Below, one piece after another: positions 1,560 to 51,330 of a stretch of DNA of 64,000 nucleotides. Under the pieces are notes generated by a model. That model was given only the letters and a program-made list of their open reading frames with translations, was not told the DNA's origin and did not search any database. Origin of the DNA: Narcine bancroftii (lineage: Eukaryota); assembly GCF_036971445.1 (NCBI RefSeq), contig NC_091481.1, forward strand, positions 73,904,001-73,968,000, given 5' to 3'. A program made the position numbers and the translations under genes. Position 1 is the stretch's first letter; every line of letters starts with the position of its first letter.

Positions 1560-2508
1560 CCTCTTCTTCCCTTTCCCTCCACCTCTTCTTCCCTTTCCCT
1601 CCACCTCTTCTTCCCTTTCCCTCCACCTCTTCTTCCCTTTCCCTCCACCTCTTCTTCCCTTTCCCTCCACCTCTTCTTCCCTTTCCCTCCACCTCTTCTT
1701 CCCTTTCCCTCCACCTCTTCTTCCCTTTCCCTCCACCTCTTCTTCCCTTTCCCTCCACCTCTTCTTCCCTTTCCCTCCACCTCTTCTTCCCTTTCCCTCC
1801 ACCTCTTCTTCCCTTTCCCTCCACCTCTTCTTCCCTTTCCCTCCACCTCTTCTTCCCTTTCCCTCCACCTCTTCTTCCCTTTCCCTCCACCTCTTCTTCC
1901 CTTTCCCTCCACCTCTTCTTCCCTTTCCCTCCACCTCTTCTTCCCTTTCCCTCCACCTCTTCTTCCCTTTCCCTCCACCTCTTCTTCCCTTTCCCTCCAC
2001 CTCTTCTTCCCTTTCCCTCCACCTCTTCTTCCCTTTCCCTCCACCTCTTCTTCCCTTTCCCTCCACCTCTTCTTCCCTTTCCCTCCACCTCTTCTTCCCT
2101 TTCCCTCCACCTCTTCTTCCCTTTCCCTCCACCTCTTCTTCCCTTTCCCTCCACCTCTTCTTCCCTTTCCCTCCACCTCTTCTTCCCTTTCCCTCCACCT
2201 CTTCTTCCCTTTCCCTCCACCTCTTCTTCCCTTTCCCTCCACCTCTTCTTCCCTTTCCCTCCACCTCTTCTTCCCTTTCCCTCCACCTCTTCTTCCCTTT
2301 CCCTCCACCTCTTCTTCCCTTTCCCTCCACCTCTTCTTCCCTTTCCCTCCACCTCTTCTTCCCTTTCCCTCCACCTCTTCTTCCCTTTCCCTCCACCTCT
2401 TCTTCCCTTTCCCTCCACCTCTTCTTCCCTTTCCCTCCACCTCTTCTTCCCTTTCCCTCCACCTCTTCTTCCCTTTCCCTCCACCTCTTCTTCCCTTTCC
2501 CTCCACCT
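1560..2508. repeat. 22-bp minisatellite (ccctccacctcttcttcccttt) x ~43
   Basis: Perfect 22-nt periodicity is directly visible. Confidence 0.97.
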
Positions 2509-3088
2509 CCTCCTTCCTTCCCCTACTCCCTTTTTACCACCCTCCAGCTGCCTGCCTACTCCTCCTCAACTCTCCTCCCATCCCTCCTCTCCTCCTTCTA
2601 TCCCAGCACCTCCCCTCCTTCCTATCCTCCCTCCTCTCCCTCCCACCTTCACCCTCACCCCTCCCTCCCATCCACCTTGCTCCTCATCACCCTCCTTCTC
2701 CCACCACCTAATCTCCTTCCAATCCTCTTTCCTCCTCCTCTCTCCTGTCCACCTTCCCCTCCTCTCCCTGTCCTCCCTCTCCCCTGTCCTCCCCCTCCCC
2801 TGTCCTCCCCCTCCTCCTCCCTCCCCTAACCTCCCCCTCCCTGCTTCCTTCCCCTCTTCACCCTCTCCCACCCTCACTGTCCTCCTCTCTGTTCCCTGCA
2901 TCCCCCTCACCCACCCATCCCCTCACCCTTCATCCCTTCCCTCCCTCACTGTCCTCCTCTGTTCCCTGCATTCCCCCTCACCCACCCATCCCCCTCACTC
3001 TTCCTCCCCACCCTCACTCCCTCCCTCCCCACCTCCCCTGCCTTCTCCTCCCCATCACCCACCTATCCCCATCCCCTCCATTTCCCCC

Positions 3089-3288
3089 NNNNNNNNNNNN
3101 NNNNNNNNNNNNNNNNNNNNNNNNNNNNNNNNNNNNNNNNNNNNNNNNNNNNNNNNNNNNNNNNNNNNNNNNNNNNNNNNNNNNNNNNNNNNNNNNNNNN
3201 NNNNNNNNNNNNNNNNNNNNNNNNNNNNNNNNNNNNNNNNNNNNNNNNNNNNNNNNNNNNNNNNNNNNNNNNNNNNNNNNNNNNNNNN
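3089..3288. other. Assembly gap (~200 N)
   Basis: Run of N. Confidence 0.98.
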
Positions 3289-3484
3289 NCCCCTTCCATT
3301 CTCCTCCCTTCCCTCCTCCCCTCCTCCATACCCCTGCCCCTCCCTCGCTCCCTTCTCCTCCCCTCCCCCCCACTCTTCTCCCCTCTCCCTTTCCCTCCCC
3401 CGTCCCCCTCTCCCTCCCCCCACTCTTCTCCCCTCTCCCTTTCCCTCTCCCGTCCCCCTCTCCCTCCCCGTTTTTTCTCATACC

Positions 3485-3570
3485 GTGAGGATGGGCTCAG
3501 ACCCGAAACGCTGGCCGCCCTTTACTTCCTGGAGACCCGGGTGCCCTGAGTTTCTCCAGTGGTTCTTGCT
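3485..3570 (+). mobile_element. Penelope-like element terminal-repeat fragment with degenerate hammerhead core; similar fragments at ~1090-1165 (-) and ~4395-4515 (+)
   Basis: gTGAGGA-tggg-ctcaga-ccc-GAAAC ... ctgagtttctccag. Resembles the tail following the GIY-YIG remnant at ~46200-46330. Confidence 0.5.
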
Positions 3571-4551
3571 CATCGCATGGCAATGCCGTTGCCCGCAGAC
3601 TTTCCTCCCCTTCTCGTTCTCTGCCTCATCTACTCGCTTCATATTCAAGTCCATGGTGGGGTCCACACCGAGAGCTCGTTTCGCCAGCTCTCCAACCAGT
3701 CATGCGACCAGTACAAAACCACCGAGAATCGGAGTGAAGGCAACGCTATTGCACTGGTCATCGGGGGCACAAGGTTCATGTTTTGGGAGAAGAGAATATT
3801 TAGCAGGTCGGGGTGCAGCGAGGGATCGTTTGTATGAATTGCCCGAGCGGGGACCGACGGGACAAGCGGTCTTCTCCTGCCTTCCCTTTCTTTTGACCCC
3901 CGTTTACTCAGTCCCGACTCGGGGAGATGGCCGAGTGAGTGGGGGCACAACTTGATGGGCCGCACAGGGACAGAACTTCACCTCCCCCTCCCCGTTCTGT
4001 CCATACAGAAACTCCTGTGTTGAACCATGATTAATTACGGTACTTGTTTAACTGTTCATTAACTGGTGAGGGCGGTTATTGCGATGGTCCACCACCTGAT
4101 GCCCACCCTCTGTGTCTGAACTTGAACAAGGAGCTGGCGGGACTCAGTGGGGCATTCCTCCTGGACAGCCTCAAATGCAGCGGCAGGAACATCCAGTCGT
4201 CTAATTTGAGGGAAGCCCCACTTCTGTCCGGTTCCATCTCTTATCCCCCAACTCCCGCTCTCACTTTGCCTCACTCGCCTACTGATTTTTCTCTCTACCC
4301 AGAGACTGTCCAGTATCTTAACGCTTTTTAGCTCCTCCCGAGTTTCACCCCACCCTCCCCTTAATATACTTGTTAACGCCCCCTTCCTACGGTGGTCTTG
4401 ATAAAGAGTCCTGACCCATAACTCTGGCTGTACATTTTGCTCCATTGCTGGTGCCTGACTCGCTGAGTCACTCCAGTTTCTTTTTGTTTGCTCAAGATTC
4501 CAGCCTCTGCCAAGTTTTGTGTTTCTCCCTTGTGCTACCAAGTTGGGATGA

Positions 4552-4810
4552 ACCGGACCTTTATGTGCACTGGCTTGTAAAGCCTGTGCAAGAACAGGTT
4601 GTCTACCGACCTGTGTGTGCGCTGGTTTGTAAATTCTGTGTAAGAGCATAGTTTATGCACCGACCTGTGTGTGCGCTGGTTTGTAAATTCTGTGTAAGAG
4701 CATAGTTTATGCACCGACCTGTGTGTGTGCTGGTTTGTAAATTCTGTGGAAGAACATGGTTTATACACCAACCTGTTAGGGAGCACTGGTTTGTGATTCT
4801 GCTCTGTTGA
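4552..4810. repeat. 54-bp minisatellite, ~4.5 copies
   Basis: ccgacctgtgtgtg recurs at 4606, 4660 and 4714, with degenerate flanking copies. Confidence 0.9.
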
Positions 4811-5021: not shown

Positions 5022-6830
5022 TAGAAGCAGGGTGCCATTTCCCCACCTCAATTTTCTCTGCTCACTCCTCTACCAAGTCTCCATTTCCACAGTCCATTCC
5101 TCATGTTGTAACTTCCTTTGTGCCAGCCTTTCTTCCTATCCTTGTCCTTCTTCCTCTTTGTTGCCTGTCTCTCTTTGTCCTTGTTTAAATTTAAATTTGG
5201 ACATACAGCAGGGTAACAGGCCATTTTGGCCCATGAGTACGGCCCAGTTTGCACCAACTTAACCTACAACCATGGTACATTCAGAATGATGGGAGAAAAC
5301 CAGAGTCCTGGGGGAAGGCCCACACAGAGAATGTATGAACTCCTTACAGACAGCACGGGTCCCAGTCCTGATCACTGGCAGTGTAAAGGTGTTGCACTGA
5401 CCGCTACATCAACCGTGCTGCCTTTGGTGCCATGATGTTTTTGAATCTTTCACCATTTATTCTTCTAATCCACCTTCTACTCTTTCTTATTCTCTCCCAT
5501 CACTACTTCCTTTCCCTGCTTGTACCCGTTTCTTTAATTTACCTGCCATCTCCTCCTCCTCTCTCTCCTTGACCCTTCTCTCTCTGTCCTCTCCCTCACC
5601 CTCTGTGCCCCCTCTCAAAATGGCTCTCCTTCTCCTCTCTTGTCCCCTCCCTCTCCTTGTTCCATCTCTCTCATTCATTCCCTTTACCTCTCCTTGTACT
5701 CTCTCACACATTTCCCCCCCATAACTCTTGTTTTCTATCTCCTTGTCCCCTCTCCTTGCCCTGCCCCTCTCGCTCTCGTTCCCCCAATCATCCCCTCTCT
5801 CCTGTCCCGTCTCTCTCCATGTTCTCTTTCTTCCCCCACCCCCCCTCTCTCTCTCTCCTTTTACCCTCACAGTGTACAAATGTGTTTTTCTTTCTCTTTA
5901 GCTTTTTATCATTGAAGTGAGGGGACACAGTTTGATCAACATGCTGGTCAGGATGTCTGGTGTAATGGAGCTTCTTATTTTCTCAGCTGGTATTAATCAA
6001 ATATTGCAGATTTTGAATATATGGGTCAGTACTTCCTCCATGTCATTCCGTTTCTGGATTTGCCAAGTGTAGGGACTGCTATCCAGCTGCCAACAGTACA
6101 ATGGGGGCTCTTTAGAACATTATAGTACTGAAACAAGCCCCTTAGGCCTTTCTAATCTATGCTGAGTCCCACTGACCTGCACCCAGTCTATACCTCTCCC
6201 GTCTGTGTACCTGTCCAAATTCTTCTTAAATGTTAAATTTAAGCCTGCATTCACCACTTCAGCTGGCAGTTTGTTCCACACTCCCACCACTTTCTGTGTG
6301 AAGTTCCCTAAACCTTTCCCCTTTCACCCTTAACCCATGTTCTCTGGTTTGTATTTCACCTACCCTCAATGGAAAAAGCCTATCTGCATTTACTGCAGAT
6401 ACATACATACATCATGGCACCAAAGACACCAGGATTGATGTAGCGGTCAGTGCAACACCTTTACACTGCCAGTGATCAGGACCGAGACCCGTGCTGTCTG
6501 TAAGGAGTTCATACATTCTCTGTGTGGGCTTTCCCCCAGGAGTCTGGTTTCCTCCCATCATTCTGAATGTACCATGGTTGTAGGTTAAGTTGGTGTAAAC
6601 TGAGCCGTACTCATGGGCCAAAATGGCCTGTTACCCTGCTGTATGTCTAAATTTAAATTTAAACCAGGACAAAAAGAGAGAGACAGGCAGCAAAGAGGAA
6701 GAAGGACAAAGATAGGAAGAAAGGCTGGCACAAAGGAAGTTACAACACGAGGAATGGACTGTGGAAATGGAGACTTGGGAGAGGAGTGAACAGAGAAAGA
6801 TTGAGGAGGGGAAATGGCACCCTGCTTCTA
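5022..6830. repeat. Inverted duplication: arms 5022-5438 and 6409-6830
   Basis: tagaagcagggtgccatttcccc...ggtgccatgatgt is the reverse complement of acatcatggcacc...ggggaaatggcaccctgcttcta. Near-identical 69-aa ORFs occur on opposite strands. Confidence 0.93.
5187..5423 (-). mobile_element. tRNA-derived V-domain SINE (HE1-like); its duplicate lies at ~6421-6660 (+)
   Basis: tRNA-like head, V-domain-like ctgtaaggagtt..gtgggc..tctggtttcctccc, and a CR1-like tail ending ctgtatgtctaaatttaaa. Confidence 0.75.
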
Positions 6831-7146
6831 TCCCCCTTATAATTTTAAATATCTCTATCAAATCTCCCCTCCTTCTTCTGTGGTCAAGGAATAAAGTCCT
6901 AACCTGTTTAACCTTTCCCTGTAACTCAGTTCCTGAAGTTCAGGCAATATCCTAGTAAATCTATGCCCTCTTTCAATCTTGTATCTTTCCTGTAGTTAGG
7001 TGACTAAAACTGCACCCAATACAGTACATTTCTGATTTTCAAAATGCTTGCGACCAGACCTTAATTGGTTAACTGAATTTTTTGGATAACTGAGAAATTG
7101 CTTTAAAGCAGCCAAGTAGCATCAACAAAATACCTGCTTCGGCCAC

Positions 7147-7275
7147 CACTGATCCCCGACTCCTCCCCACCGCAGTCGCCGATCCCTGACACCTCCCCAC
7201 CGCTGTCGCCGATCCCCGACACCTCCCCACCGCAGTTGCCGATCCCCGACACCTCCCCACCACAGTCACTGATCC
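7147..7275. repeat. 30-bp GC-rich minisatellite, ~4.5 copies, inside the MITE
   Basis: Unit gatccccgacacctccccaccgcagtcgcc repeats. Confidence 0.9.
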
Positions 7276-7304
7276 TGCCCGGGAGCCCAAGGTCTCACCT
7301 CACC

Positions 7305-7385
7305 TTTAAGTGGTAGGAGATTGCACGTACAGTCCCAGGGATTGTCCTCCAGCAGAATTTCAGCGACCCCTGCTGAGGGTATTTG
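7305..7385 (-). pseudogene. Isolated SLITRK1-like LRR/LRRCT gene fragment (27 codons)
   Basis: [27 protein letters not shown] versus recalled SLITRK1 [25 protein letters not shown]. No other SLITRK sequence is seen nearby. Confidence 0.75.
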
Positions 7386-9088
7386 ACAGAGAGGGCGGCT
7401 TGGGGGAGCAGAGAGAGAGTGCATCTCAGGGGAGTGAGAGTGGTGCGGGGAGAAAGTGCCGCACAGGGGAGTGACGAAAGAACGTGGCGTGGGGGAGTGG
7501 GGAGAGAGTGTGGCATGGGCAAGCAGGAAGAGAGCATGGCTCAGGGGAGCGGGAAGTGGGAGTGATATTATGCTACAGGTCTTAGATGCCTCTCCTCTCA
7601 CAGTCAATGTGAAGGATGCCTTTGAAGGTCAATAGTTGTAGTGCCCAGAATGATTTGCAGCAAAATTTTGAAATAGTAGCATGTGCACCCACCACCCACC
7701 CCACCCCATTTCATGCCTTGAATTGCTTCACCTGGTTCTGAGTTCTTTTGTTACCAAACTAACACTAACAGCACATAAGACCCCCACATGAGCAACTTGG
7801 GTGAATTTTTTTCAACTTGTAATGTCCTGTTTCTGGCAAAAAAAAAATTCTGATAATTGAGAATCTTGGTAAAATTGTTTTTGGATAATTGGAAACTTAC
7901 TGGCCTTATCAATGTCTTGTACAACTTTACCATAACATCCCAACTCATACACTCAACACTATGATTTATGAAGGCTATTATGCCAAAAGCTCTCCTAGAA
8001 CAACCCAATCCACCTGTATTCCCAGGTCTCTCTGTTTCTCTACACTCCTCAGTGCCCAACCATTCACTGTGTATGTCCTTTCTTGGTTTATCCTTCGAAA
8101 ATGCAACAACTCACACTTGTCTGCATTAAATTCCATCTGACATTTTTCAGCCCATTTTTCCAGCCGGTCCAGATCCCTCCGCAAGCTTTGAAAACCTTTT
8201 TCGCTGTCCACAACACCTCCAATCTTAGTGTCATCTGGAAATGTGCTGATACAATTTACCACATTATCATCCAGATCATTGATATAGATGACAAGCAACA
8301 ATGGTCCCAGCACCAATCCCTGAAACACAACACTAGTCACAGGCTACTCTCTCTGGTTTCTCCTGTCCAGCCATTGTCAATCCAGTTCACTACTTCACAA
8401 TGAATACCTAGCACCTGAACCTTCTTGACTAACCTCCCATGTGTGACCTTGTCAAAGGCCTTACTAAAGTTCATAATATCCACAGCCTTTCCTTCATCAA
8501 CTTTCCTGGTAATCTCTTCAAAAAACTCAATAAGATTGGTTAAACGTGACCCCTACCTCGGACAAAGCCATGTTGTCTATCCCAAATCATTTTCTGGCTA
8601 TCCCAGTAATTGTATATCTGATCTCTCAGTACACTTTCCAATAATTTATCTACTACTGATGTCAGGCTCACTGGCCTACAATTTCTTAAACAATGAAACA
8701 AAAGCTAACCTCCAATTCTCTGGCACCACACCCATGGCTATTGACATTTTAAATATTTCTGCCAGATCCCCTGCAATTTTTAACCTCCCTCAAGTCATGA
8801 GGGAATATCTTGTCAGACCCTGTGGATTTATCCACACTTATTGCTTTAAGACACCAAGCACTTCTTCCTCTTTAATCTATGTAGGATCCATGACCTCACT
8901 GTTTGTTTTCCTTACTTCCCATAACTCAGTCCTCATTTCCTGAGTGAATACTGATGAAAAAAAATACATTTAAGACCTTCCCATCTCTTTGGTTCCATAC
9001 ATAGCCGACCACTCTGATCTTCAAGGGGACCAATTTTGTCCCTTTCTACCTTTTGTTCTTAATATACCTGTAGAAACCCATAGGATTT

Positions 9089-10763
9089 GATATGCCATAG
9101 TCATGGGCCAGTTAAGTGTTATACTAATACTGGGCTTTTACTAACAGACTATAACCACCACTAACCTGGTCAGTGGGAAAGCATCTCCACCTGTTATACC
9201 AGTAGGGTGGAGTATCTTAGCCATAGCCAATAGCAAGCAGTCAGTATAATATGCCCCTCCCCATTACATCATCACATTTGCTCCCCACAAAAATTGACCA
9301 ATTTTAATAAAATACAATATTGGCAAAAGTAAAACAAATTACAAAAGATTGCAAATAGAATTAATAGGAACATACAGCAGACAGGAAAAAAAAGCAGGCT
9401 GCAAGCCTGAGATAATACAGGGTGACTACACTCACTGTAATTATGGCTAAGATTAGAAATGGTCATAACAGAACTTCTAAGGAGGCTTTGAGATTCATGT
9501 TGATCTTCATAAGGGTACAGATGGAGGAGACTTATCTCTAACCAAAGGACTTCTGTCGCCAGGTGAGGAAGGGAGTGGAGAGTGCAAGGAAACATTCTCA
9601 TGAATAGGGTATTGTTCCTTGAGACGGGAAGGGTAGAGGAGGAGTCAGGTCAGTGGAAGAGCTAGCAGGCTATAGACCAGGCAAGGCTAAATCCATAAGG
9701 GAAACAGTGACCATCCTTCCATCATTAAAAATAACATGAGCATATTGCAATTAGGATGAGGCAGCTGAACACACACTACAAGCGGGTCAGCTTAACTGGG
9801 CCTAACATGTTTCTTAATAAAACATCTCCGGGCTTAAATAGCCAAGTCGGCAAGGTTGATGCAGTTTTTGATTTTCTAGTGAAAACAAAAGACACTGGTG
9901 AGGGGTCTCATTGGTAGCTGGACAAAGCCGTGTACAGATTGAGTTTAATGCTTTTGGCAGCACATCTTGCCAGCTGCTGGTGGTGAGACCTTTTGATTTT
10001 AGTGCAAGAGTGTTGGCTTTCAGATTGTACTGTTACTGTGCTCCACTTGACCATTACCCAATGGGTTATAGCTTGTAGAATGACCAGTAGCTATCCTCCT
10101 ATCAAGAAGGCATTGCTTAAATTCAGAACTCATGAAAGTTGACCCTCTGTCACTATGAATGAAGTTAGGATAACCAAAAATACTAAAAATAATATCAAGA
10201 CATTTAATAACAGAACAAGCAGAAATGTCAGCACATGGCATAGAGAAGGGAAAATGAGAGAATTCATCAATGATGTTAAGGAATTAGGAATTCTTAGTAT
10301 TTGAGGGTAGTGGTCCTTTAAAATCCATGCTGAGGTGTTCGAAAGGTCTAGATGCCTTAAATCAATGTGGAAGCAGAAGGCTTGTAATAGTGTGGTTTAC
10401 ACTCCACACAGACGGGGCACTCGTTAGTCAGTTTCTTGAAGTCTTGCAAACAAAGTGTTTTGTGGCATATTATGATAGGTTCTGAGGTGATTCAGTGCAT
10501 TCTGGTAGACAGCTGTTTCCCTAATCACTGAGTAGGGTACTTCTCCGAGGAGAAGGTCTATTTATGCTGCGTCTTGCACAACATTGTTCACTTGCATGAA
10601 TGCTTCAAAACACTGGAGCTAGTGGTGAAATATTTCTCCAGCTCAGGTGGCATCTTGATCTATTTCGAGGATTCCATGATTTAGGGAAGTATCCATGATT
10701 GAGAGTCTGTTAATAAAATTAATATGCCATAGACCTGGACCAGTCAAGTGTTATACTAATACT
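9089..10763 (-). mobile_element. Internally deleted Gypsy LTR retrotransposon (family A): 3' LTR ~9089-9276, integrase remnant, 5' LTR stub 10721-10763
   Basis: Integrase core FGYPNFIHSDRGSTF..STSYNPLGNGQVE. atatgccatag..aagtgttatactaatact occurs at both ends. A purine-rich tract abuts the 3' LTR. Confidence 0.8.
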
Positions 10764-10765
10764 TG

Positions 10766-12010
10766 TGTGACAGAATATAGATATGTTTTTGGGAGATAAA
10801 TTGGGGAAGGGTTTGTTAGGGTAGGTCACATACAAACACTTTAAAACAGATCTTATTTAAAATAATGGAGCTCTGCTAATGCTGGACATGTTGGGGCCTC
10901 AGAGCCTTTGCAAAAGCTTTGGAAAGTGACAAGAGACTTCACTAATGGATTGTTATTTACAAAAAGGTAACATGAAAGAGCTTGTCAGATCCACAGACAG
11001 TCAGGAGGGGAACTTGCTGTTCTAAGAGTGTCAAGTGGTTTTTAAGCAGAGAGAGTCAAACAGGATTTTTTGCTGGTTGAGAGAGAAAAGAGAAATACAC
11101 ACAGATACAGTTGCGAATTGGAACTGCAGCTGGGATTGGAACAGGACAAGCTTGTGGGAAACCCCATTTGGAGGATGGGTTGTGAATGGTTAGTTCAGCC
11201 TGGTCAAAGCCCTTGTGGTTCATGCAATAGGAGAGGACTGGATGTCTAATGTTTTACTTGAAATAGGAGAAACAAAAAGGCACTCTGGTGACCTGAGAGA
11301 AAGAGGTTGTCACCTGGAGAACCCTGACGGGGCAAGTATCTTCGACAAGACGCTGAAGTGCCTGAGTGTCCATCATATAATAAATCACTCTCTGAAAACT
11401 GACAAGAACTTTCGTGAGTGGTGACCATATACCTTTCAAGCACCAAAGCCTGGTGAACTTTATAGATGTTAAATTCTGTGTACAATATCAGAATTGCCTG
11501 CAACCAGTGAACTTGGAGGAATGAGAAGACAGATTGGACTGTGAACCAAAGAACGTTTCTGAACTTATACACACATTTCATACACGTGCTCTTAGAATTA
11601 GAAGGGGGTTAAGTTAGGTTAGTTAAGTCAATAGTGATAAGTTAAAGTGAGATTCTCTTTTCATGTTTAAAGATAATTAAACACAACCATTACCTACAGA
11701 GCTGTAGAGCAAGAGTAAAGAGGAACTGAAGGTTATTTCTAAGGTGTTAAAGATGATTGAAGCCAAGATCTGGATGAAGAAAATACAAACACAGAGGATT
11801 ATAGTGAAATATATAGTTGAGGGAAAATGTGTTGTGAAAGATAGATAATTTTCCAGAGGATAGATCTGTTGAATTGCAATTGGAGTTGGAGAAATTGAGG
11901 GTGGAAGAGGAAAGAGAAAAATTGAATTTTGAGTTGCAGAGACAACAATATGAGGCTGAAAAATAGATATATTAGGCAGAGGAAGCTGAAAAACAGAGGA
12001 AATATGTACT
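10766..12010 (+). mobile_element. Gypsy-type LTR (family B) fused to a gag N-terminal remnant; unit copies start at 19863, 28683 and 36531
   Basis: Starts TGTGACAG and is homologous to the solo LTRs at 46341 and 49316. Followed by a coiled-coil gag-like ELQLELEKLRVEEERE. Confidence 0.8.
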
Positions 12011-12175
12011 GAGCCCCGATCTGAAGTTTTGCACCTACCCTTAATCTAACTGTGCTTCGAGCAATAAAGCCCCATCATTCATATCCCCTTGCAATAACAC
12101 ATGTCTCACTCTTGGCAACATTGTCGTCATTCTTCTCTGCACACTCCAGCCTGACGAGATCTTTTCTGCAGCACG

Positions 12176-13790
12176 TCAGGTCAAGTTTAATGTCATCTGA
12201 TTGTACAAGTACAACCTGATGAAACAGCGTTCTACGGTCTGTGGTGCAAAACACACAAGGCACACAATGAGGCAGATCGCATGGATAGACAAAAAATACA
12301 TATGTGGGACAAGAATTCTATCTATAAAAATAAATAACTAAATATTGTTTTTTACCTATGAGAATCTCAGATGGTTAGTGTGCACAGTTCCTTTAGTCGT
12401 TCAGCATTCTCACTGCCCATGGGAAGAAGGTGTTCCTTAGCCTAGTGGTGCTGGCTTTGATACTCCTGCAGTTTAAACTTGACAGGAGCAGCTAAAATAT
12501 GCTGTGTGCAGGGTGGAAGGGATCATCAGTGATTTTGTGCCACCTCTTCAGACCATCCCAGTAGATCACGTTAGTGTGAGGGATGGGGGGAACACACAAG
12601 TGATCGTTTCTGCCACTTTTAAGGTCCTGTGGATTAACCTCCATTCCATTTCTATGCAGCAACCATACCACACTGTGATGAAGCTGGCCAGGACACACTC
12701 GATAGAGCTCCTGTAGAAGGTTGACATAATGGTGGCCGGAGGCCTTGCCTGCTTTAGAATTCTCAGAAAGTGCAGTCGCTGTTGCACCTCACGGCCAAGT
12801 AAAGACATGATGAGTGTCCAATTTAGGTCATTAGTTAAGTGAACTCCAAGGAACTTGGTGTTCGCCACTCTGTCTACTACAGAGTTGTTGATGTAGTGAA
12901 GGGTGGTTTTTCCTGGTTCTCCTGAAATACATGATCATCTCCTTTGTCTTGTCCACGTTGAGACTCAAACCATTTCATGAGAGTTTCCTCCTCTTCTCCG
13001 TAGTGTTACAAGAGGTAAACTTTAATTCAAAATTCCGCCCCCCCCCCCCCCACCTTTTATAATATTGCCCACTGGTTACTATGCAAATTTATATTACGGC
13101 ATAAAACTAATAAATTCCACAGCCTAAATATAACATATGTAATTAAAGTCTAAGTTATATTTCCAACCAGCCCACAGAAAAAACTTAGACACAATACAAA
13201 GACAAAACAAACAAGACTCACAAAACTTCAAACTCAACCGAAGCAAAGCTCAGAAACTAAATTTAGTTTTTTTGGTAAACTGAAGCCAAAAGATCTTAGA
13301 GGGCACAAAATTCGAAGTATTACTTGCAGAGAGAGGAACCACAGGCTTGGTCCGGATCCTTCTGGCTGCCTTTGAAATGATTCATCCTTTTTGAAATCCC
13401 AACATTCTAAACTGTCCTGCAGACCATGACCATGTCTGGGCCTTTTTCCACTCCACAACAACACCCAGTGGTGGTTTATTGTCCAAGTCCAGAATTTTTT
13501 TTCTTTTTCAATTCCTTCAGAGTCTGTCTCCCACTCTCTCAAGCAGTCCACCTTCACCTTGGCTCTGGCCCTCTAAGCCAAACTGTCACTTTTTAACATA
13601 AAACCACACAACACATAGGCCAATACACAACACAGAACTCTGTAACAGTGGCGTGATTTATAATTATTGCTGATGAGGCCAACGACTGCTGTGTTGTCTG
13701 CAAACTTGATGACACTGTTGGAGCTGGATCTGGGGATTCAAATATGGGTCAGTCGCGTGAACAGGAGTGGGCTGAGCACACAGCCCTGAG
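12176..13790 (-). mobile_element. Rex1/Babar LINE 3' part, interrupted by solo LTR-C; repeated in all four units
   Basis: FLGVHLTNDLNWT..QQRLHFLRILK..FYRSSIECVL..ITVWYG. PQGCVLSPLLF/KFAD-type RT motifs at 13660-13790. Confidence 0.85.
13004..13647. mobile_element. Solo LTR (family C); copies at 21296-22478, 30128-30844 and 38829-39407
   Basis: TGTTACA...TGTAACA termini with gtag/gtgg flanks. Interrupts the Rex1 RT. Confidence 0.8.
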
Positions 13791-14065
13791 GTGAAAAATA
13801 TCATAACTAATGTCCACATCTCAAAGTCATTGCAATTTTCAGTCTAGGGTTTCACAATCCTTCAATTTCACTAATTAAGCTCAGTGTCACGGAGCAATTT
13901 AATGTGGCTGATGTAATCCATTCATTATATTATTGAAATGGTCTATTTTTAACTCTATTGAAACCTCACAGTCCCTGTGGAAATCCCACATAGTATAAAT
14001 ACTCCAAAACAGTTCATCTAGAAAGTTTGATTCAGAGTAATTGCCCGCAGAATAAAGGGCAGAAA
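13790..14065 (+). promoter_or_regulatory. Putative GPCR proximal promoter with TATA box at 13994 (copies: TATA at 22825, 31191, 39754)
   Basis: TATAAATA lies 72 nt before the ATG. This is the only non-TE sequence upstream of the gene and is near-identical in all four copies. Confidence 0.6.
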
Positions 14066-16504
14066 ATGCTGGAAACATATTACGAGGTCGAGAAGATATT
14101 GTATGTTATCATTTCCGTCATTGGAGTTCCTGGTAAGTGAGTGGGACAATTTCAGTTCTGTAACTGTGCGCTTCCCGGACCTGATCGACTGATATTCATG
14201 TCACATAGCTTATTTCAACAGTTTGGAGTGGACCAAATTTCATAGGAGCAGATATAGGTTCTTCAGCTCAACGAGTCTGCCCCGCCATTCAATCATGAGC
14301 TCAGCCCCACTGCACAGCCTTCTCCCCATAACTTTTAACCTGTCTATTCAAGAACCTATCAATGTCTTCCTTACATACAAATCCAGTGACCTAACCTCCA
14401 CAACTGCCTACGGCAACAAATTCCACAGATTTACTACCCTCTGACTGAAGAAATTCCTCTGCATCTCTGTTCTAAGCGGACGCCCTTCAATCCTGAATCC
14501 TTCAACTCTCCTTCCATGGGAAACAACTTTCTGCATCTCCTCTGTCCACGTCTTGCAACATTCAAAACGTTTCATCCATTCTCCTAAATTCCAATGATAC
14601 AGGTCAAAACGGTCAAATGCTCCTCAGATGATCACTCTTCCATTCCTGGAATCATCCTTGTGAACCTCCTTTGAACCCTCTCCAATGTCAGCACATCCTT
14701 TCATAAGTAGGGAGCCCAAAACTTCGCACCATATTCCAAGCGGGGTCTCACCAGTGCCTTGTAAAGCCTCAACATCACATCCCGGCTCTTCTATTCTATT
14801 CCCCTCGGATCGAAAACAATAACCTGGGTTATTAATCCTGAAACATCACTGTATTTCTTTCCTCTTGCCAACAGACAAAACATCTCCTTTTTGTAGCAAC
14901 ACAAGAGAAACGTTGTGTCAAGAGGCACTGTGCATCGAGTTGTAACAGAGCTCGGGACAGGCAGCATTCAGAAAAGGTGTGCGGGGAGGGTTTGATATTG
15001 TGAAGTTGGATGTTTTTGAGTATCAGAGTGAAGACTTGATCCTGTGGTCACGGTGCACTCTGGATTCTGCCCCAGTTGGAAACCGCTGTCTGTCTGTGAA
15101 CAATTGTGATAGATCCCGAGAACCAGTGGCTGGAGATTTGCAGGCGGGCGGTCTGGTGAAATGTGAATTAATCCATTCTGCTGTCAGATTCTAAGATGCT
15201 CTTGCCTTGTCTCTGCAACCTCCCTTGCCCCATAAGATGCTGTTTAAAGAAATCTGATAAAACACGTCTGGTCAGGGTTTTACTCAGTGAAATGGGCTTT
15301 TGCTGTTCACCCCACAGAAGTGCTTGAACCCTTCTCGCTGAAGCCAACACGAGGATCCGTGACCCACATGTCACATTTGTCACCCCTCACGTTCTTCAAA
15401 ACTGGATTTTATGTGAAAATCCATCGGGTGTTCAAAATAGGAGAATGGGTTCAGTGATGAAGGGCTCAAGCTCAAAGCGTTGCTTAAGTATCATCTTTAC
15501 TGTATAAAGTAGACTCTTTGACACCTGAGTTCCCCCCACGTTGTGTTTTTCCTTGTGTTCAATAATGCCAAATGTGCTTGATCTCACTTTCTCCAGTGAA
15601 TGTGGTGGCAATTGTGATCCTATCCCGGGGAAAGTGCGGCCTTTCCACCTGCACCACTCGCTACCTGTTGGCCATGGCAGTGTCGGATCTACTGGTCATT
15701 ATAATTGTGGTAATTTTCTACCGATTATATTATCATTATTTTCCGGTAAATTTCCAGAATAGCACCAACGTGTGCAAAGCCATTTATGCCCTGGCTTATG
15801 CAGCTGCCAACTGTTCTGTCTGGTTCACTGTTTCTTTCACTCTCGACCGTTTTGTGGCCATTTGCTGTCAGAAACTGAAGACCAAATATTGCACCAGGAC
15901 CGTTGCGGCTTTTGTTGTAGTGACCACTGGCGTCCTGCTCTGTCTGAAAAACATTCCCTTCTACTTTGCCTATCAGCCAAGATGGATCATCAACAATGTA
16001 CCGTGGCTCTGTGTACTGACAGACAGTTATTACACTGACCCAGGGTGGGTGGCATTTGACTGGCTCGATAAAGTTTTAACTCCGTTGGTTCCTTTCGCTG
16101 TAATTCTGCTGCTCAACGCTTTGACGATCCGGCACATTTTAGTGGCCAATCGTGTCCGGAAGGGGCTAAAGAATCAGAGCAAGGGGGAGAACCGCAATGA
16201 CCCGGAGATGGAGAGCAGAAGGAGGTCTGTGGTTTTACTTTTCATGCTCTCCGCCAACTTCATCTTCCTGTGGCTGGTGTATGTGGTAGAATTCGCCTAC
16301 TATCAGATTGCACGGAGAGGAATAGATCGGAATCATTGGGAAATCATCTTTCACGAAGCTGGATATTTACTGAGTAATTTCAGCTGCTGCACGAACGCAT
16401 TTATTTATGCAGCGACTCAGTCCAAATTCAGGGGGCAGATCAAGATCGCGGTGAAATATCCAGTCAGCTCAATGCTTCAGTTCATGAATAAAGCGGCTCT
16501 TTGA
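14066..16504 (+). CDS. GPR139/GPR142-like class A GPCR, copy 1 (exons 14066-14132 and 15597-16504; 324 aa)
   Basis: Exon 1 MLETYYEVEKILYVIISVIGVP ends g|gtaagt. The acceptor is ttctccag|tg, giving a phase-1 join that completes TM1 (GVPVN). LAMAVSDLL, DRF, ECL cysteines, NAFIY and seven hydrophobic segments are present. Confidence 0.92.
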
Positions 16505-17134
16505 CTTGACCCAGCGGTGACCACATGACCCCATCCTGGTCTCCGCTTCCTGAAATTCACCCCAAAGTTCAGGTGCTTTCCTGGGTGGGACCATCAGCTC
16601 CGGACGTTTCCACGCTCACAATAACGCTCTCACCCTATTGCTTTCCAGATCGTGGCGAGGTTCAAGCCGTCTTTGCCAAAATGACAATCATCTCCCTTCT
16701 CCGACGGCTAAAGGAACCCTTAACCCCTGACCTTTCAAATGCCACCCTCTACCCGAGTCTCCCATGGTCATTGAGAAGCTGTGGGGAATGATAGCGACAT
16801 TCGACTACCGTCAGTCGGCGTCTGTGACGCTCCACTCCTGATGTTTCAATGTCGATATTGCAGAGTAAAAAGAAATCGAGTCGGCCAGCTGGGCCCGCAA
16901 CCCGGATCTGATTTTCAGTCACGGCCAACACACTCAAGCTTCAAATCCCACGTGGCTTAACAATTGTCTGTTTCTCTCAAACGTTGCTGCTTCTTCCAAT
17001 TTCGCCTCCATGGTAACCATTACCATACATTCTATGAGAGGCTATTTACAGGCACCTTGATTTAAAATGTTTGCTTTGTTCAAAATTCCCCTAATTGCTG
17101 AACGATATCTTCCCTGTCTGGCAGGTCCTTGTAT

Positions 17135-18185
17135 AACCATATAACAATTACAGCACGGAAACAGGCCTTTTTGTCATTTCTAGTCTACACCGAACCAAGT
17201 CCTCTCCTCTCGTCCCATCGACCAGCACCTTGCCCAGAACTCTCTATTCCCCTCCCATCCATATACCTATCCAATTTTCCTTAAATGACAAAATAGACCC
17301 TGCCGCCGCTACTACTCCCTGAAGCTCATTCCTCACAGCACCACTCTCTGAGAGAAGAATTTCCCTCTCATGATACTTCTAAACTTTTCCCCCCTTAACT
17401 CTTAACTCATGACGTCTTGTTTCAATCTCTCCCACTCTCAATGGAAAAAGCCTATCCACAACAATTCTATCTCATAATCTTAAATACCTCAATCAAATCC
17501 TCTCTCAACCTTCTGTGCTCCAAGGAATAAAGACCAAAGCTGTTCAATCTTTCTTTGCAATCTAGATTCTGAAACCAAGGTAACAATTTCATAAATCTTC
17601 TCTGCACTTTTTCTACCTTGTTGATATCCTTCCTATAATTCGGTGACCAGAATTGCACACAGAATTCCAAATATGGCTTCACCAATCCCTTGAACAGTTT
17701 CAACATGACTTCACAATTCCTGTATTCTATGCTTTGATTTATATAGGCCAGCATACTAAAAGCCGCCTTCACCGCCCTATCTACAAGAGATTCTACTTTT
17801 AAGGAACGATAAGCCATTATTCCTAGATCTTTCTGCTTGACTGCATTTCTCAATGCCCTCCCAGTTACTATGTATATCCTGTGTTGATTATTCCTTACAA
17901 AATCAATCACTTCATATTTATCAGCATTAAACTCCATCTGCCATCTTTCAGCCCACTGTTCTAAGCAGCCCAAATCCCTCTGCAATCTTTTATAACCTTC
18001 TTCATTATCTACAATTCCACCTATTTTAGTTTCATCCACATATTTACCAATCCAATTTACCACCCCATCATCCAGATCATTCATGTAAATGACAAACATG
18101 AAGGGACCCAATAGAGATCTCTGAGGCACACCGCTTGTTACCGACCTCCAGTCTGACAAACAGTTATCCACTTGACTAGACTCTC
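17135..18185 (-). mobile_element. CR1 LINE 3' fragment; copies at ~25955-27000, ~34345-34862 (internally deleted) and ~42907-43945
   Basis: ORF 17467-18171 VTSGVPQRSLLGP..WQMEFNADKY..FWSPNYRKDI. The tail matches the CR1 ending at 61745. Confidence 0.92.
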
Positions 18186-18189
18186 TGGT

Positions 18190-18560
18190 GTGTTTCCATA
18201 AGATCCCATCATTCTTTTAAACCCCACAGAGTACATATCCAAGCTTTTATCCAACGACATTTATTGAGATGAGAGGCAATTCGGCGCCTGCCAAAATTTC
18301 CATTTCAATGACCATTCCCATACTGGTATAACCGTCCTGGCTTCACCCATTAAGAGCGTGGGTCCAAATGTAATATTGAGGAACAGCACATCACGTTTCC
18401 TGGTGGACACCCAATGCTATGAATATCCTTGGTCACCTATACTTTGGTCTGATTACACGATTCTGATCTATTTGCCTATTTGTTTTCTCTCTGTCTAAAA
18501 TCCCATCACAGTTTTGTTTCCCTTTACCCAGCTCTCCTCATTTGCGACCATCTGTCTACC
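18190..18560 (+). mobile_element. Decayed Penelope-like GIY-YIG C-terminal fragment (present in each unit)
   Basis: catttcaatgaccattcccatact..gaggaacagcacatcacgtttc resembles HFN..SH..EEQHLIF, also seen at ~45880-45980. Confidence 0.55.
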
Positions 18561-19420
18561 ACGCTATGGTCGTTTATCCCTTCCCAGCTTCTCACCCCAA
18601 TGTGAATGCTGGTGCAACGAGCTACAATGTGTCTGCATATTGTTTTTTCCTGATCTCCTCTCCCCAGCCTCATTCTCTGGCGATCACCAGTGTTTGTCAT
18701 CCCTCCTTCATGTTAATGAATCCGTGATCGTTTTGATATGACGTGAGTTTCCCCGCAAAAAAAAGATATATTTCCAATCACCTCGTTTGTCTTTCGCTGC
18801 TTATTCCTGATAAACCAAATACCAATGATCTCTCCAAACATTTTGTATCATGTAGGTTTATATGTTGTTAACCATGTGCTCTTCAGCTGACTGACGGAAC
18901 CCATCTTTCTTGTCAGGATGATTTGTTATTTGCTGAGGTCTTAGCGAGTGATCTGCCACTGATCATCTGCTGTCTGTCTCTTGGATTGCTTTGTCAGCTC
19001 ACTTCAGATGGTCCCATCTTCAAACCACTGGATGCCCCCTTGAATATGCCGAGTGCCTGGCTTTGAGTGGTGATGTTCAGCCTCAGGCTGATTCTGGTTT
19101 TTGGCCACATTATGGTCATTCTTACCAGGGTATCCTGAACATCACCATTAATCTTCTTCACACGAAGAATTCTGACATTGTAGGGTCAAGGATCACATTC
19201 TGCTGGAGATGTCATGGAGTAAAAACTATAACTAATAAAAAAAAATACCTTCGAGGATAAAAAAAAAAGCGGGCTGTCTTAAACAGCAGTTCCTCACAAA
19301 AATGTTTGTTGAGGAATGTTGGTCTTCATGTCATGATGATGTTAGTCCAGATATGCTCTCCAGCATCTTAAACCTTATCCATGTAGGAAAGGTTCACTGG
19401 ATTGAGTCGTGGGACATTAG

Positions 19421-19851
19421 GACATCCGCCCTACCTGATGTGTTAATGGTGTTCTGTATCAGGCAGCCATGGACTGTTTGACCTGCTAAATTTATATGTG
19501 ATCAATTTGTTGCCAGAAACTCAAAACAAAATATTGCACTGGGAGAACTGTGGCTGTGGTTCTGACATCAACAGGCATTCTGCTCTTGAATAAAACAAGT
19601 CACTCAATTTAACACCAACCATAATTATCAGCAATACACCGTGGTTCGTTAAAATTTAACCAGGTTATTTTAGTGATCCGAGGTGGGTGGATTTGATTGG
19701 TTCGATACTGTATCACTCATCCCGCTGCTGCTGAATGCCCTGACACAGTGTAGTGGTCGGTCAAGGTGCTGCGGGTTGGGTTGTAGAGCGAAGGGAGAGC
19801 CAGAGATGCTGAGCTGGAGGGAGGTCTGTGGTTTTACTCTTCACCATCTCC
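19421..19851 (+). pseudogene. Degenerate GPR139-like GPCR pseudogene (TM3-TM6), unit 1
   Basis: Collinear remnants VLYQAAMDC, FICDQFVA, CQKLKTKYCTGRTVAVVLTSTGILL, IISNTPWF, YFSDPRW, FDWFDT, LLLNALT, PEM and RSVVLLFTIS, with stops and frameshifts. Confidence 0.88.
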
Positions 19852-21703
19852 TGTTCCTGAGGTGTGACAGAGTATATCGACATGTTTTTGGGAGATAATT
19901 TGGGAAAGGTTTGTTAGAGTTGGCCATTATAAACACTTTAAAACAGATCTGATTTGAAATACTGGACCTCTGCTAATACTAGACATATGGGCTCCACAGC
20001 ATTTGCAAGAGCTTTGGGAAGTGCCCAAGAGACTTCACTAATGGATTGTTGGTTATGAAAAGGCAACAGATGAAAGATCTTGTTGAAGCCACCTTCTATC
20101 TGGGAAGGAACTTGCTGTTCTAAGAGGGTCATGTGGTTTTGCAAGCAGAGGATTAAAGTTGAGGGAAAATGTGTTGAGAAAGATAGATAATTTTCCAGAG
20201 GATAGATCTGTTGAATTGCAATTGGAGTTGGAGAAATTGAGAGTGGAAGAGGAAAGAGAGAAATGGAATTTTGAGTTGCAGAGACAACAATATGAGGCTG
20301 AAAAACAGAGGAAATAGGTACTGAGCCCCGATCTGAAGCTTTGCACGTACCGTTAATCTACCTGTGCTTCGAGCAATAAAGCCCCATCATTTATATCCCC
20401 TTGCAATAACACATATCTCCCTCTTGGCAACATTGTCGTCATTCTTCTCTGCACACTCAAGCCTGACGAGATCTTTACTGCAGAAAGTCAAGTTTAATGT
20501 CATCTGATTGTACAAGTACTGCCTGATGAAACAGCGTTCTCCGGTCCGCAGTGCAAAACACACAAGGCACACAATGAGGCAGATCGCATGGATAGATAAA
20601 AAATACATATGTGGTACAAGAATTCTATCTATAAAAATAAATAACTAAATATTGTTTTTTCCCTATGAGAATCTCAGATGGTTAGTGTGCGCAGTTCCTT
20701 TAGTCGCTCAGCATTCTCACTGCCCATGGGAAGGTGTTCCTTAGCCTAGTGGTTCTGGCTTTGATACTCCTGTAGATTTTCCTTGATATGAGCAGCTAAA
20801 ATATGATGTGTGCAGGGTGGAAGGGATCCTCAGTGATTTTGTGCCCCCTCTTCATATCATCCCGGTAGATCATGTCAGTGTGGGGGATGGGGGAACACAC
20901 AAGTGATCGTTTCTGCCACTTTTAAGGTCCTGTGGATTAACCTCCATTCCATTTCTCTGCAGCAACCGTACCACACTGTGATGCAGCTGGCCAGGACACA
21001 CTCAATAGAGCTCCTGTAGAAGGTTGACATAATGGTGGCTGGTAGCCTTGCCTGCTTCAGAATTCTCAGAAAGTGCAGTCGCTGTTGCACCTCCCGATAT
21101 GGTGAGTGTCCAAGTTAGGTCATTAGTTAAGTGAAGTCCAAGGAACTTGGTGATTGCCACTCTGTCTACTACAGAGTTGTTGATGTAGTGAAGGGTGGTT
21201 GATCTTGGTTCTCCTGAAATACACACTCATCTCCTTTGTCTTGTCTGCATTGAGACTCGAACCATTTCACGAGAGTTTCCACCTCTTCTCTGTAGTGTTA
21301 CAAGATCAAACCAGCAACCACAAAGAAGGTATATCACACAGGAGTAAAGATGAACAATTACTTTATTATCAAAATTTCACTTTCAAATTTTAATTCAAAA
21401 TCCCCCCCCCCCCCTTTTATAGCATTGCCCACTGGTCACTATGCAAATTTCTATTACAGTGTAAAACTACTAAATTCCCCAGCCTAAATAAAGTCTAAGT
21501 TATATTTCCAACCAGCCCACAGATAAAACTTAGACACAATACAAAGACAAAACACACACAAGACTCACAAAACTTTGAACTCAACCGAAGCAAAGATCAT
21601 AAACAAAATTCAATTTGTTTGGTAAACTGAAGCCAAAAGATCTAACAGAGAGGGAGATAGAGAGAGAGAGAGAGAGCACAAATTCGAAGTGTTGCTTGCA
21701 GAG

Positions 21704-22138
21704 TGTTATAGATAGAGAATTTGGGTTAAAAAGGGTTTACGTTAAAATGTGATGATTAGTCATAAAAGGGGGCTAACCACTAGAGTTTAGCTGGAAAATG
21801 TTACAACAGACTTGCAACAGATTTAACTACAGAGAGACATGCAGGAGCCAAAGATTGATAAAGAGTGAAAAACAGAATTTGGTGTGAGCAGAGGTCATGA
21901 AGGATCGTGGTGTGCGTGACTATCAGTAATCAGGATGATTCTGCAAAAACTAACCAATTGAAGCAGTGTAGTGGAGATGCCGAAGGACAAGCAAATTGTA
22001 TAAAAAACAATGCACTGTATGTATCGGGGCTTGACTTGGCAAGAAGCCGGTTGAGTCCAACTCTGCAGACTTGTGAATAAAGCTTGTCGTGTCACCGATC
22101 TTAAAGAGACTCATTTGTGAGAATTTGTGTTTCTGACA
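21704..22138 (+). mobile_element. Solo LTR (family D), unique to unit 2
   Basis: TG...CA termini, perfect 5-bp TSD cagag, TATA-like tataaaa and AATAAA. The site is empty in the other units. Confidence 0.9.
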
Positions 22139-22896
22139 CAGAGAGAGGAACCACGGGCTTGGTCTGGATCCTTCTGGCTGCCTTTGGAATGATTCATCCT
22201 TTTTGAAATCCCAACATTCTAAACTGTCCTGCAGACCATGGCCATGTCTGGGCATTTTTCCAATCCACAACACCACCCAGTGGTGGTTTATTGTCCAAGT
22301 CCAGAAATTTTTTTCTTTTTCAATTCCTTCAGAGTCTGTCTCCCACTCTCTCAAGCACTCCACCTTCACCTTGGCTCTGGCCCTCTAAGCCAAACTGTCA
22401 CTTTTTAACATAAAACCACACAACACATAGGCCAATACACAACACCTAGGCCAATACACAACACAGAACTCTGTAACAGTGGCGCGATTTATAATTATTG
22501 CTGATGAGGCCAACGACTGCTGTGTTGTCTGCAAACTTGATGACACTGTTGGAGCTGGATCTGGGGATTCAAATATGGGTCAGTCGCGTGAACAGGAGTG
22601 GGCTGAGCACACAGCCCAGAGGTGAAAAATATCGTAACTAATGTCCCCATCTCAAAGTCATTGCAATTGTCAGTCTAGGGTTTCACAATCCTTCAATTTC
22701 ACTAATTAAGCTCAGTGTCACGGAGCAATTTAATGTGGCTGATGTAATCCATTCATTATATTATTGAAATGGTCTATTTTTAACTCTATTGAAACCTCAC
22801 AGTCCCTGTGGAAATCCCACATAGTATAAATACTCCAAAACAGTTCATCTAGAAAGTTTGATTCAGAGTAATTGCCCGCAGAATAAAGGGCAGAAA

Positions 22897-51207: not shown

Positions 51208-51230
51208 CGAGAGTAAAAATGACCACGGAC

Positions 51231-51250
51231 TATATGTATCTGTGTATATG

Positions 51251-51293
<43 letters not shown>

Positions 51294-51330
51294 AGTGTGT
51301 GTGTATGTATATATGTGTGTACATGAGTGT
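51231..51330. repeat. (TA)n/(TG)n microsatellite in the L1 inter-ORF spacer
   Basis: Directly visible dinucleotide run. Confidence 0.9.

What the first reader, a model, noticed from the sequence alone, without database searches (positions are those of the whole stretch)
7022..7902. Tigger/pogo-like MITE carrying a captured SLITRK1-like coding fragment (Pack-TIR-like)
Seen: an 881-bp insert with imperfect CAGTA TIRs splits a CR1 at a TA. It contains a 30-bp minisatellite and, on the minus strand, 27 open codons (7305-7385) matching the first LRRCT region of SLITRK1 as I recall it. SLITRK coding regions are normally uninterrupted, so an isolated piece is not a native exon. The piece is bracketed by cag|...aaag|gtgagg, which would make a frame-preserving 66-nt phase 1-1 cassette. 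Inference: host-gene capture by a DNA transposon, with exonisation or antisense-regulation potential.
Basis: partly seen in the sequence, partly recalled or inferred. Interest (0 to 1): 0.72.

Follow-up and report, generated by a model that had tools for sequence, protein, structure and literature searches.

The report
Ray transposon carrying SLITRK1 gene pieces
A small jumping DNA element in an electric ray carries three broken pieces of the nerve-cell gene SLITRK1, and one piece has spread as a common repeat in three species, probably as a passenger rather than a working exon.

Summary
The capture is real and larger than reported. The 881-bp insert (7022-7902) splits a LINE and has 23-bp imperfect TIRs (17/23). 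It carries three colinear minus-strand SLITRK1 pieces, not one: about aa 1-32 (7699-7625), aa 43-67 (7623-7549, two stops) and aa 209-232 (7382-7305; aa 211-232 are 22/22 identical to Narcine SLITRK1). The host is an electric ray near Narcine.

Public contigs show the third piece plus the 30-bp minisatellite as a high-copy repeat in three organisms (82, 53 and 78 contigs share one variant; roughly hundreds of copies). Both termini are multicopy but about ten times rarer.

Best reading: a multicopy Pack-TIR of pogo/Tigger-like build that took the 5' third of the SLITRK1 coding sequence, eroded it by internal deletions and was then amplified.

Corrections: the right-hand TA is missing (about 13 nt lost), so no TSD is shown. 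The in-frame 66-nt cassette looks peculiar to this copy (65/68 nt in most others that align there). No splicing was seen. Not shown: TIRs around most fragment copies, or an autonomous partner.

The parts
6827..7021 (-). LINE (CR1-like) RT remnant, left flank; ends in the TA at 7020-7021
   Evidence: table 7
7022..7044 (+). Left TIR, about 23 bp, starts CAGTA
   Evidence: 17/23 match to the right end, 3 of 200,000 random pairs; multicopy, depth 177-205 at 7051-7066 in X1
7067..7102 (+). Subterminal segment with a GGATAA-type motif, repeated at 7878-7901 (79%) and inverted at 7842-7856 (87%); candidate transposase-binding motifs (inference)
   Evidence: D4, I2; depth about 1,600 in X1 at 7074-7076
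7151..7275 (+). 30-bp GC- and CpG-rich minisatellite, 4.2 copies; travels with SLITRK1 piece 1 in other copies
   Evidence: linked contigs table 8
7298..7306 (-). Donor-like site AAG|GTGAGG (8/9 to the recalled consensus MAG|GTRAGT), exactly at the 3' end of SLITRK1 homology; CAG|GTGAGG in most other copies
   Evidence: T>G at 7306 in 78-99.6% of depth
7305..7370 (-). SLITRK1 piece 1: aa 211-232 (start of the first LRRCT), intact
   Evidence: 22/22 to Narcine
7371..7376 (-). 6-nt insertion between Pro210 and Gly211; its TCAGC is an inverted copy of GCTGA just downstream; it creates the NAGNAG acceptor
   Evidence: 7-nt version inferred in other copies table 4
7377..7382 (-). SLITRK1 Ile209-Pro210, in frame with piece 1 in this copy
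7388..7548 (-). Degenerate 26-bp C/T-rich repeat in place of aa 68-208; no SLITRK1 similarity left
   Evidence: 6 of 40 shuffles scored as high
7549..7623 (-). SLITRK1 piece 2: aa 43-67 (LRRNT region), 19/25 to Narcine, two stop codons
   Evidence: tblastn E 1.3e-5 in the window; score 96 vs shuffle maximum 38, 0 of 40
7625..7699 (-). SLITRK1 piece 3: about aa 1-32 (N-terminal leader), two in-frame gaps of about 4-5 codons; one extra base (7624) shifts the frame relative to piece 2
   Evidence: score 52-54 vs shuffle mean 22 and maximum 41, 0 of 150 for each of two queries
7880..7902 (-). Right TIR; no TA follows; TG microhomology with the lost LINE stretch
   Evidence: multicopy, depth 184-336 at 7836-7871 in X1
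7903..8686 (-). LINE (CR1-like) RT remnant, right flank

Best explanation
One copy of a non-autonomous cut-and-paste element with short TIRs (pogo/Tigger-like build) that carries a decayed copy of the 5' coding part of the host's own SLITRK1, i.e. a multicopy Pack-TIR. Steps: (1) An ancestral element took in about 700 nt, Met1 to Lys232, probably by template switching during gap repair or replication [capture shown; mechanism inferred]. (2) Internal deletions, a 26-bp repeat expansion and a short inverted-copy insertion reduced it to three colinear pieces [pieces shown; order of events inferred]. (3) A transposase supplied in trans multiplied it, and a derived subfamily marked by T>G at 7306 took piece 1 plus the minisatellite to high copy number in at least three species [high copy shown from contigs; that TIRs drove it is inferred]. 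(4) This copy entered a TA in a LINE, and a later deletion of about 13 nt between two TG dinucleotides removed the right TA [junction shown; cause inferred]. The fragment is most likely a neutral passenger, transcribed only as part of other RNAs.
For: Three pieces in native order and on one strand, all inside ends fixed by the LINE break. TIR match 17/23, 3 of 200,000 random pairs. Both termini multicopy at similar depth: X1 177-205 left and 184-336 right, against 6.28 for the contig identical to this locus. At 7306, 82, 53 and 78 contigs in runs of organisms A, B and C share one variant; total depth there is 3,106, 9,194 and 15,042. Contigs join the minisatellite to piece 1 (e.g. 7188-7370, 7242-7391), and one (7064-7197) joins the left subterminal segment to the minisatellite (table 8). 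A second genomic copy holds minisatellite, piece 1 and 39 nt of piece 2 (joint 7370 to 7584, X1 and X10). Narcine SLITRK1 fits best (54/63 aa among 18 species) and the window's GPCR is 94% identical to Narcine against 73% or less for the other listed hits. The captured part is the 5' end with no poly(A), unlike a retrocopy.
Against: No TA on the right, so no TSD. The 7160-7370 block is about ten times deeper than the termini, with a dip at 7125-7159 (X1 190) and none at 7440-7474, and no listed contig spans the element: most fragment copies are not shown to carry these TIRs. Summed depth is not a copy number by the tool's own caveat. No autonomous partner and no native DNA could be examined (no genome). 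The Narcine lead is one residue over Rhinoraja (53/63). Piece 1 has 0 changes in 24 codons against 9 in 39 for pieces 2 and 3 (Fisher p 0.01, post hoc), and a strong donor sits exactly at the breakpoint (0.16% of random 66-nt windows); a pure passenger does not predict either.
Confidence: 0.7

Rival explanations
1. Composite element: the abundant unit (minisatellite plus piece 1) belongs to a different mobile family, such as a Helitron-like or retroposed element or a TIR family with other ends, and this TIR-bounded copy is a rare ancestor or recombinant.
For: Block depth 2,166-5,802 against about 180-340 at the termini in X1; dips on both sides of the block; many listed pieces end at 7363-7370. 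Vertebrate Helitrons do amplify captured gene fragments: 12,382 copies in a bat (PMC4224331, passages).
Against: Pieces 2 and 3 are colinear with piece 1 inside the same TIRs. The left subterminal segment 7070-7124 is also deep (1,172-1,660 in X1). AT-rich, decayed ends are expected to drop below an 80% likeness cut-off with short contigs (inference). The insert's own ends are not Helitron-like.
Confidence: 0.15
2. Functional cassette: piece 1 is kept because the element supplies an alternative exon, a terminal-exon donor, or antisense or small RNA against slitrk1.
For: Donor 8/9 exactly at the breakpoint and an acceptor within 12 nt: 0.03% of random 66-nt windows have both. Piece 1 is less decayed than pieces 2 and 3 (p 0.01-0.02). 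One copy lies in a 1,390-nt contig of depth 223.6 in the putative RNA run X10.
Against: Other copies give 65 or 68 nt (table 4; co-occurrence of the indels inferred from matching depths). Five of 8 listed X10 pieces cross the donor unspliced, and none of the 15 joints shown (268 hidden) uses 7304. No chimeric protein with the piece was seen or 49 (weak negatives). Here the element lies 6.2 kb upstream of, and antisense to, the nearest gene found. Piece 1 was picked because it is intact (ascertainment). That X10 is RNA is a guess.
Confidence: 0.1
3. A decayed SLITRK1 duplicate or retrocopy whose TIR-like ends are chance, or a native exon of a multi-exon LRR gene.
For: No TSD; pieces 2 and 3 are near single-copy in the contigs (depth 8.5-96 in X1).
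Against: TIR match at independently fixed ends; termini multicopy; 5' part without 3' end or poly(A); stops and a frameshift in pieces 2 and 3; no other LRR exon in 64 kb; the insert sits inside a LINE ORF; SLITRK1 is intronless in pig, human and mouse (PMC4215120, passages).
Confidence: 0.05

Closest known systems
Multicopy Pack-TIRs of animals (Tan et al. 2021, PMC8277862; sections 7, 9 and 14, abstract, passages and a supplement search seen)
   Same: Host sequence captured between the two ends of one TIR element, then moved by transposition; TcMariner is one of the two main carriers (115 of 370); captured pieces are short (median 224 bp).
   Different: Only four multicopy cases were found there (three frog, one alligator; the frog example has three copies). 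Elephant shark had 0 Pack-TIRs and 'SLITRK' is absent from 12 supplementary files. Here the cargo is coding, broken into three pieces, and one piece reaches roughly hundreds of copies in three species. It would fail that paper's 80-120% length filter.
pogo/Tigger transposons (PMC7386202, PMC9219625; passages seen)
   Same: Short TIR (40 bp or less; Tigger 8-33 bp); TA at the left junction; Tigger is reported in chondrichthyans.
   Different: No transposase in the insert, no right TA, no partner identified. TA plus a short TIR does not separate pogo from Tc1/mariner. The link between CAG-type ends and pogo/Tigger is recalled, not found in the passages read.
Plant Pack-MULEs and Pack-TYPE elements (PMC8903248; passages seen)
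   Same: Non-autonomous TIR elements carrying coding fragments; some families exceed 100 copies (maize hAT and PIF); some supply exons.
   Different: Plant systems; Mariner Pack-TYPEs there are mostly low copy; no exon use is shown here.
Bat Helitrons with captured gene fragments (PMC4224331; passages seen)
   Same: Vertebrate DNA transposons that amplified captured host fragments, biased to 5' gene parts (54 genes, 12,382 copies).
   Different: Rolling-circle elements without TIRs; this insert has TIR ends.

Membership tests
Pack-TIR | Internal host-derived sequence with an unambiguous parent gene | tested here: met
   SLITRK1 at protein level, three pieces
Pack-TIR | Flanked by both ends of one TIR element that exists as a repeat family | tested here: met
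   17/23 TIR; both ends multicopy in three organisms
Pack-TIR | Operational filter of Tan et al.: 90% or more DNA identity and 80-120% length against the parent | tested here: not met
   About 395 nt (7699-7305) against about 696 nt of parent codons, 57%. DNA identity not testable. The filter selects young captures and does not define the mechanism.
Pack-TIR (multicopy) | Several dispersed full copies with distinct TSDs | tested here: inconclusive
   Fragment and ends are multicopy, but no listed contig spans the element; no genome
Pack-TIR | Parent locus not itself flanked by the element (not a segmental duplication) | not testable with these tools
   Native DNA not available
pogo/Tigger | TA target-site duplication | tested here: inconclusive
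   Left TA present; right TA absent along with 11 nt of LINE, consistent with a later deletion
pogo/Tigger | Short TIR (40 bp or less) | tested here: met
   About 23 bp; range
pogo/Tigger | pogo-type DDE transposase in the element, or in a partner with the same TIR | not testable with these tools
   The only frame of 120 aa or more in the insert is 7266-7628, which has no Pfam hit; partner search needs a genome
Helitron | 5' TC and 3' CTRR ends, inserted between A and T (recalled) | tested here: not met
   Insert ends are CAG...CTG; the inner block's own ends could not be defined
Processed pseudogene | 3' end with poly(A) and a TSD (recalled) | tested here: not met
   Only aa 1-232 present; no similarity to aa 233-697 (12 of 40 shuffles as high)
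Exonised TE cassette | Spliced reads joining both sites to host exons | tested here: inconclusive
   None among the 15 of 283 joints shown; 5 of 8 listed X10 pieces read through the donor; contigs only, RNA status guessed

The most novel reading that the evidence does not exclude
A vertebrate TIR family has spread a SLITRK1-derived module with a ready-made splice donor to hundreds of loci in electric rays, and piece 1 is selectively kept because some copies act as exons or as antisense or small-RNA sources that feed back on slitrk1.
Probability: 0.12. Interest if true: 0.78.

Novelty: new variant of a known kind. Interest (0 to 1): 0.5.

Why it matters
The one animal-wide survey found multicopy Pack-TIRs rare (four cases; three copies in the example shown) and none in its elephant shark genome. 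A coding fragment of a conserved neuronal gene carried to roughly hundreds of copies across three species would show plant-style Pack behaviour at scale in a vertebrate. It also offers a series (long three-piece copy, then short amplified subfamily) for dating capture, erosion and amplification. Practically, hundreds of near-identical SLITRK1 snippets can disturb read mapping, probes and gene prediction at slitrk1.

Tried and rejected
No whole genome was held, so full-length copies could not be counted. No second copy of the element in the window. Rfam on 6400-8600: 0 hits. Pfam on the 29-aa peptide and the 120-aa frame: 0 hits. No RNA holder was listed by the run search, which says nothing about expression. 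A 22-mer from piece 1 gave 5 metagenome hits, 0 viral and 1 prokaryote genome; all six matched the element over the 22 nt only and lie in GC-rich, bacterial-looking DNA, so they are chance. phmmer over 1.84 billion representatives gave 21 hits; only P0007 exceeded 70% identity, so no high-identity chimera was seen (the others were not inspected one by one). The alternative open frame across the cassette gave 6 candidates, none at E 10 or better. Both negatives are weak because of clustering. No stable DNA fold at 7290-7400 (z 0.90). No SLITRK1 remnant in 7383-7548, 7022-7304 or 7700-7902 (6, 12 and 8 of 40 shuffles as high). Zero depth at 7440-7474 in all four runs, and at 7650-7684 in X5 and X9, is not used as evidence of absence. 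Earlier scan notes: nothing returned. Literature searches that returned no description of this element: (listings only); most subscription papers are outside the library, and Repbase and Dfam were not searchable.

Full report
Setting. The window holds four tandem two-exon GPCR genes (7tm_1; first coding exon about 14066-14132, second from 15597) among LINE remnants. The GPCR is 94% identical to a Narcine bancroftii GPR139-like protein and 73% or less to the other listed hits (best 120 of 1,856 shown), so the host is an electric ray in or near Narcine.

The insert. Joining 6827-7021 to 7903-8340 gives one continuous alignment with four other LINE copies in the window (66-68%), so 7022-7902 is an insertion into a LINE RT frame. 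Its ends match as inverted repeats at 17 of 23 positions; 3 of 200,000 random window pairs do as well. A GGATAA-type motif recurs subterminally. The left junction is TA|CAGTA. The right junction is TACTG|GCC, while other LINE copies read CAATA CTCCAAATTTG GCC at this site (table 7). Eleven LINE bases, plus a second TA if there was one, are missing. A 13-nt deletion between the element's last TG and the LINE's TG would explain this (inference). A TSD is therefore not demonstrated.

The cargo. tblastn of the native proteins against all 64 kb found a second piece at 7623-7549 (aa 43-67, E 1.3e-5) and no other LRR exon. A gapped alignment found a third at 7699-7625 (about aa 1-32; score 52-54, 0 of 150 shuffles for each of two queries). 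All three lie on the minus strand in native order. Two in-frame gaps of 4-5 codons interrupt piece 3; aa 33-42 are replaced by one base; piece 2 has two stops; aa 68-208 are replaced by a 26-bp C/T-rich repeat with no remaining similarity. Across 63 comparable residues in 18 named species, Narcine fits best (54), Rhinoraja next (53), and sharks and Callorhinchus 44-51; this agrees with a donor in the host's own lineage but discriminates weakly. SLITRK1 is intronless in pig, human and mouse (PMC4215120, passages); the ray gene's structure was not seen. The cargo is the 5' third without a 3' end or poly(A), which argues against LINE retroposition.

Copy number. Contigs of four runs were laid on 6950-7970 at 80% likeness (4 of 12 listed runs). 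A contig identical to this locus over 7585-7937 has depth 6.28 in X1. Over piece 1 the summed depth is 2,166-4,221 in X1, 5,873-7,761 in X5 (organism B) and 10,030-22,285 in X9 (organism C). At 7306, 82, 53, 78 and 14 contigs (X1, X5, X9, X10) share T>G, making up 91, 99.6, 96 and 78% of depth. Summed depth is not a copy number, but the ratio suggests some 200-700 copies in organism A and the contig counts imply at least tens. Listed pieces (32 of 25,489) join the minisatellite to piece 1 in all three organisms. The termini are also multicopy (X1: 177-205 at 7051-7066; 184-336 at 7836-7871) but about ten times shallower than the block, and no listed piece spans the element. Pieces 2 and 3 are shallow (8.5-96 in X1). 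One other genomic copy holds minisatellite, piece 1 and 39 nt of piece 2 (joint 7370 to 7584 in X1 and X10). This window's copy keeps the native Lys232 codon and all three pieces, so it looks closer to the founder than the amplified subfamily (inference).

The proposed exon. The donor AAG|GTGAGG matches the recalled consensus at 8 of 9 and lies exactly where homology ends; 0.16% of 126,394 random 66-nt windows have such a donor at their end, and 0.03% also have an acceptor. Against exon use: Ile209-Pro210 lie upstream of the acceptor, which is formed by a 6-nt insertion whose core is an inverted copy of the bases just downstream, a pattern expected from template switching (inference). Among contigs that align that far (a minority of those on piece 1), 62, 98, 83 and 54% of depth carries +AA after 7375, with a matching 1-nt loss at 7370/7371 (table 4), giving 65 or 68 nt. 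In the putative RNA run, 5 of 8 listed pieces cross the donor unspliced; none of 15 joints shown uses it (268 hidden). One copy sits in a 1,390-nt X10 contig of depth 223.6, a hint of transcription if X10 is RNA. Protein searches found no chimera (weak). This copy lies 6.2 kb upstream of, and antisense to, the nearest gene found. Piece 1 is better preserved than pieces 2 and 3 (0/24 against 9/39 changes, p 0.01), but it was selected for being intact; this remains unexplained.

Mechanism. Most likely (0.7): capture of the SLITRK1 5' coding region into a short-TIR non-autonomous element, erosion by internal deletion, amplification in trans, and insertion here at a TA. Capture, three pieces, high copy of piece 1 and multicopy ends are shown. 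Template switching, the order of events, the pogo/Tigger transposase and TIR-driven spread of most copies are inferred. Rivals: the abundant block belongs to another mobile family (0.15); piece 1 is functional (0.1); decayed duplicate or native exon (0.05).

Comparison. It works like the multicopy Pack-TIRs of Tan et al. [quoted passage not shown] It differs in carrying a fragmented coding cargo at far higher apparent copy number across species. High-copy captured fragments are known in vertebrates for bat Helitrons (PMC4224331) and in plants for Pack-TYPE elements (PMC8903248). pogo/Tigger membership is compatible with TIR length and the left TA but unproven. Searches showed no paper on this element; repeat libraries were not searchable, so the family may already be catalogued without the SLITRK1 link.

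Verdict. A real gene capture by a TIR-bounded repeat; a new, apparently high-copy variant of a known kind; regulatory or exon function unsupported so far. Interest 0.5.

Noticed in passing
window 13,300-44,200: Four tandem two-exon GPR139-like GPCR genes (second exons near 15597, 24399, 32787, 41350) in segmental units of about 8.5 kb, 93-97% identical, each including LINE remnants; all four second-exon frames are open.
   Followed up: partly
window 5022-5438 and 6409-6830: A 422-bp segment duplicated in inverted orientation at 94% identity, about 1 kb apart; the second copy abuts the LINE that hosts the element.
   Followed up: no
P0007 (Rhincodon typus, EukProt model g48312.t1): This predicted SLITRK1 stops matching at the same lysine as the element's cargo and continues with unrelated sequence, whereas the NCBI Rhincodon protein is full length. 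It may be a prediction or assembly artefact, a cryptic donor, or a repeat-caused misjoin.
   Followed up: partly
window 49,800-55,300: Long plus-strand non-LTR retrotransposon with ORF1-like and endonuclease/RT frames broken into several pieces, L1/Tx1-like by recall.
   Followed up: no
window 1560-2524: 22-bp C/T-rich tandem array, 43.9 copies at 99% identity, within a low-complexity region next to an assembly gap.
   Followed up: no
window 4548-4776: 54-bp tandem repeat, 4.3 copies, 86%.
   Followed up: no
run X10 record 11 and run X1 record 1, on window 7188-7370: The same other copy of the element appears in DNA (depth 7) and in a 1,390-nt contig of the putative RNA run (depth 223.6); its host transcript is unknown.
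   Followed up: no
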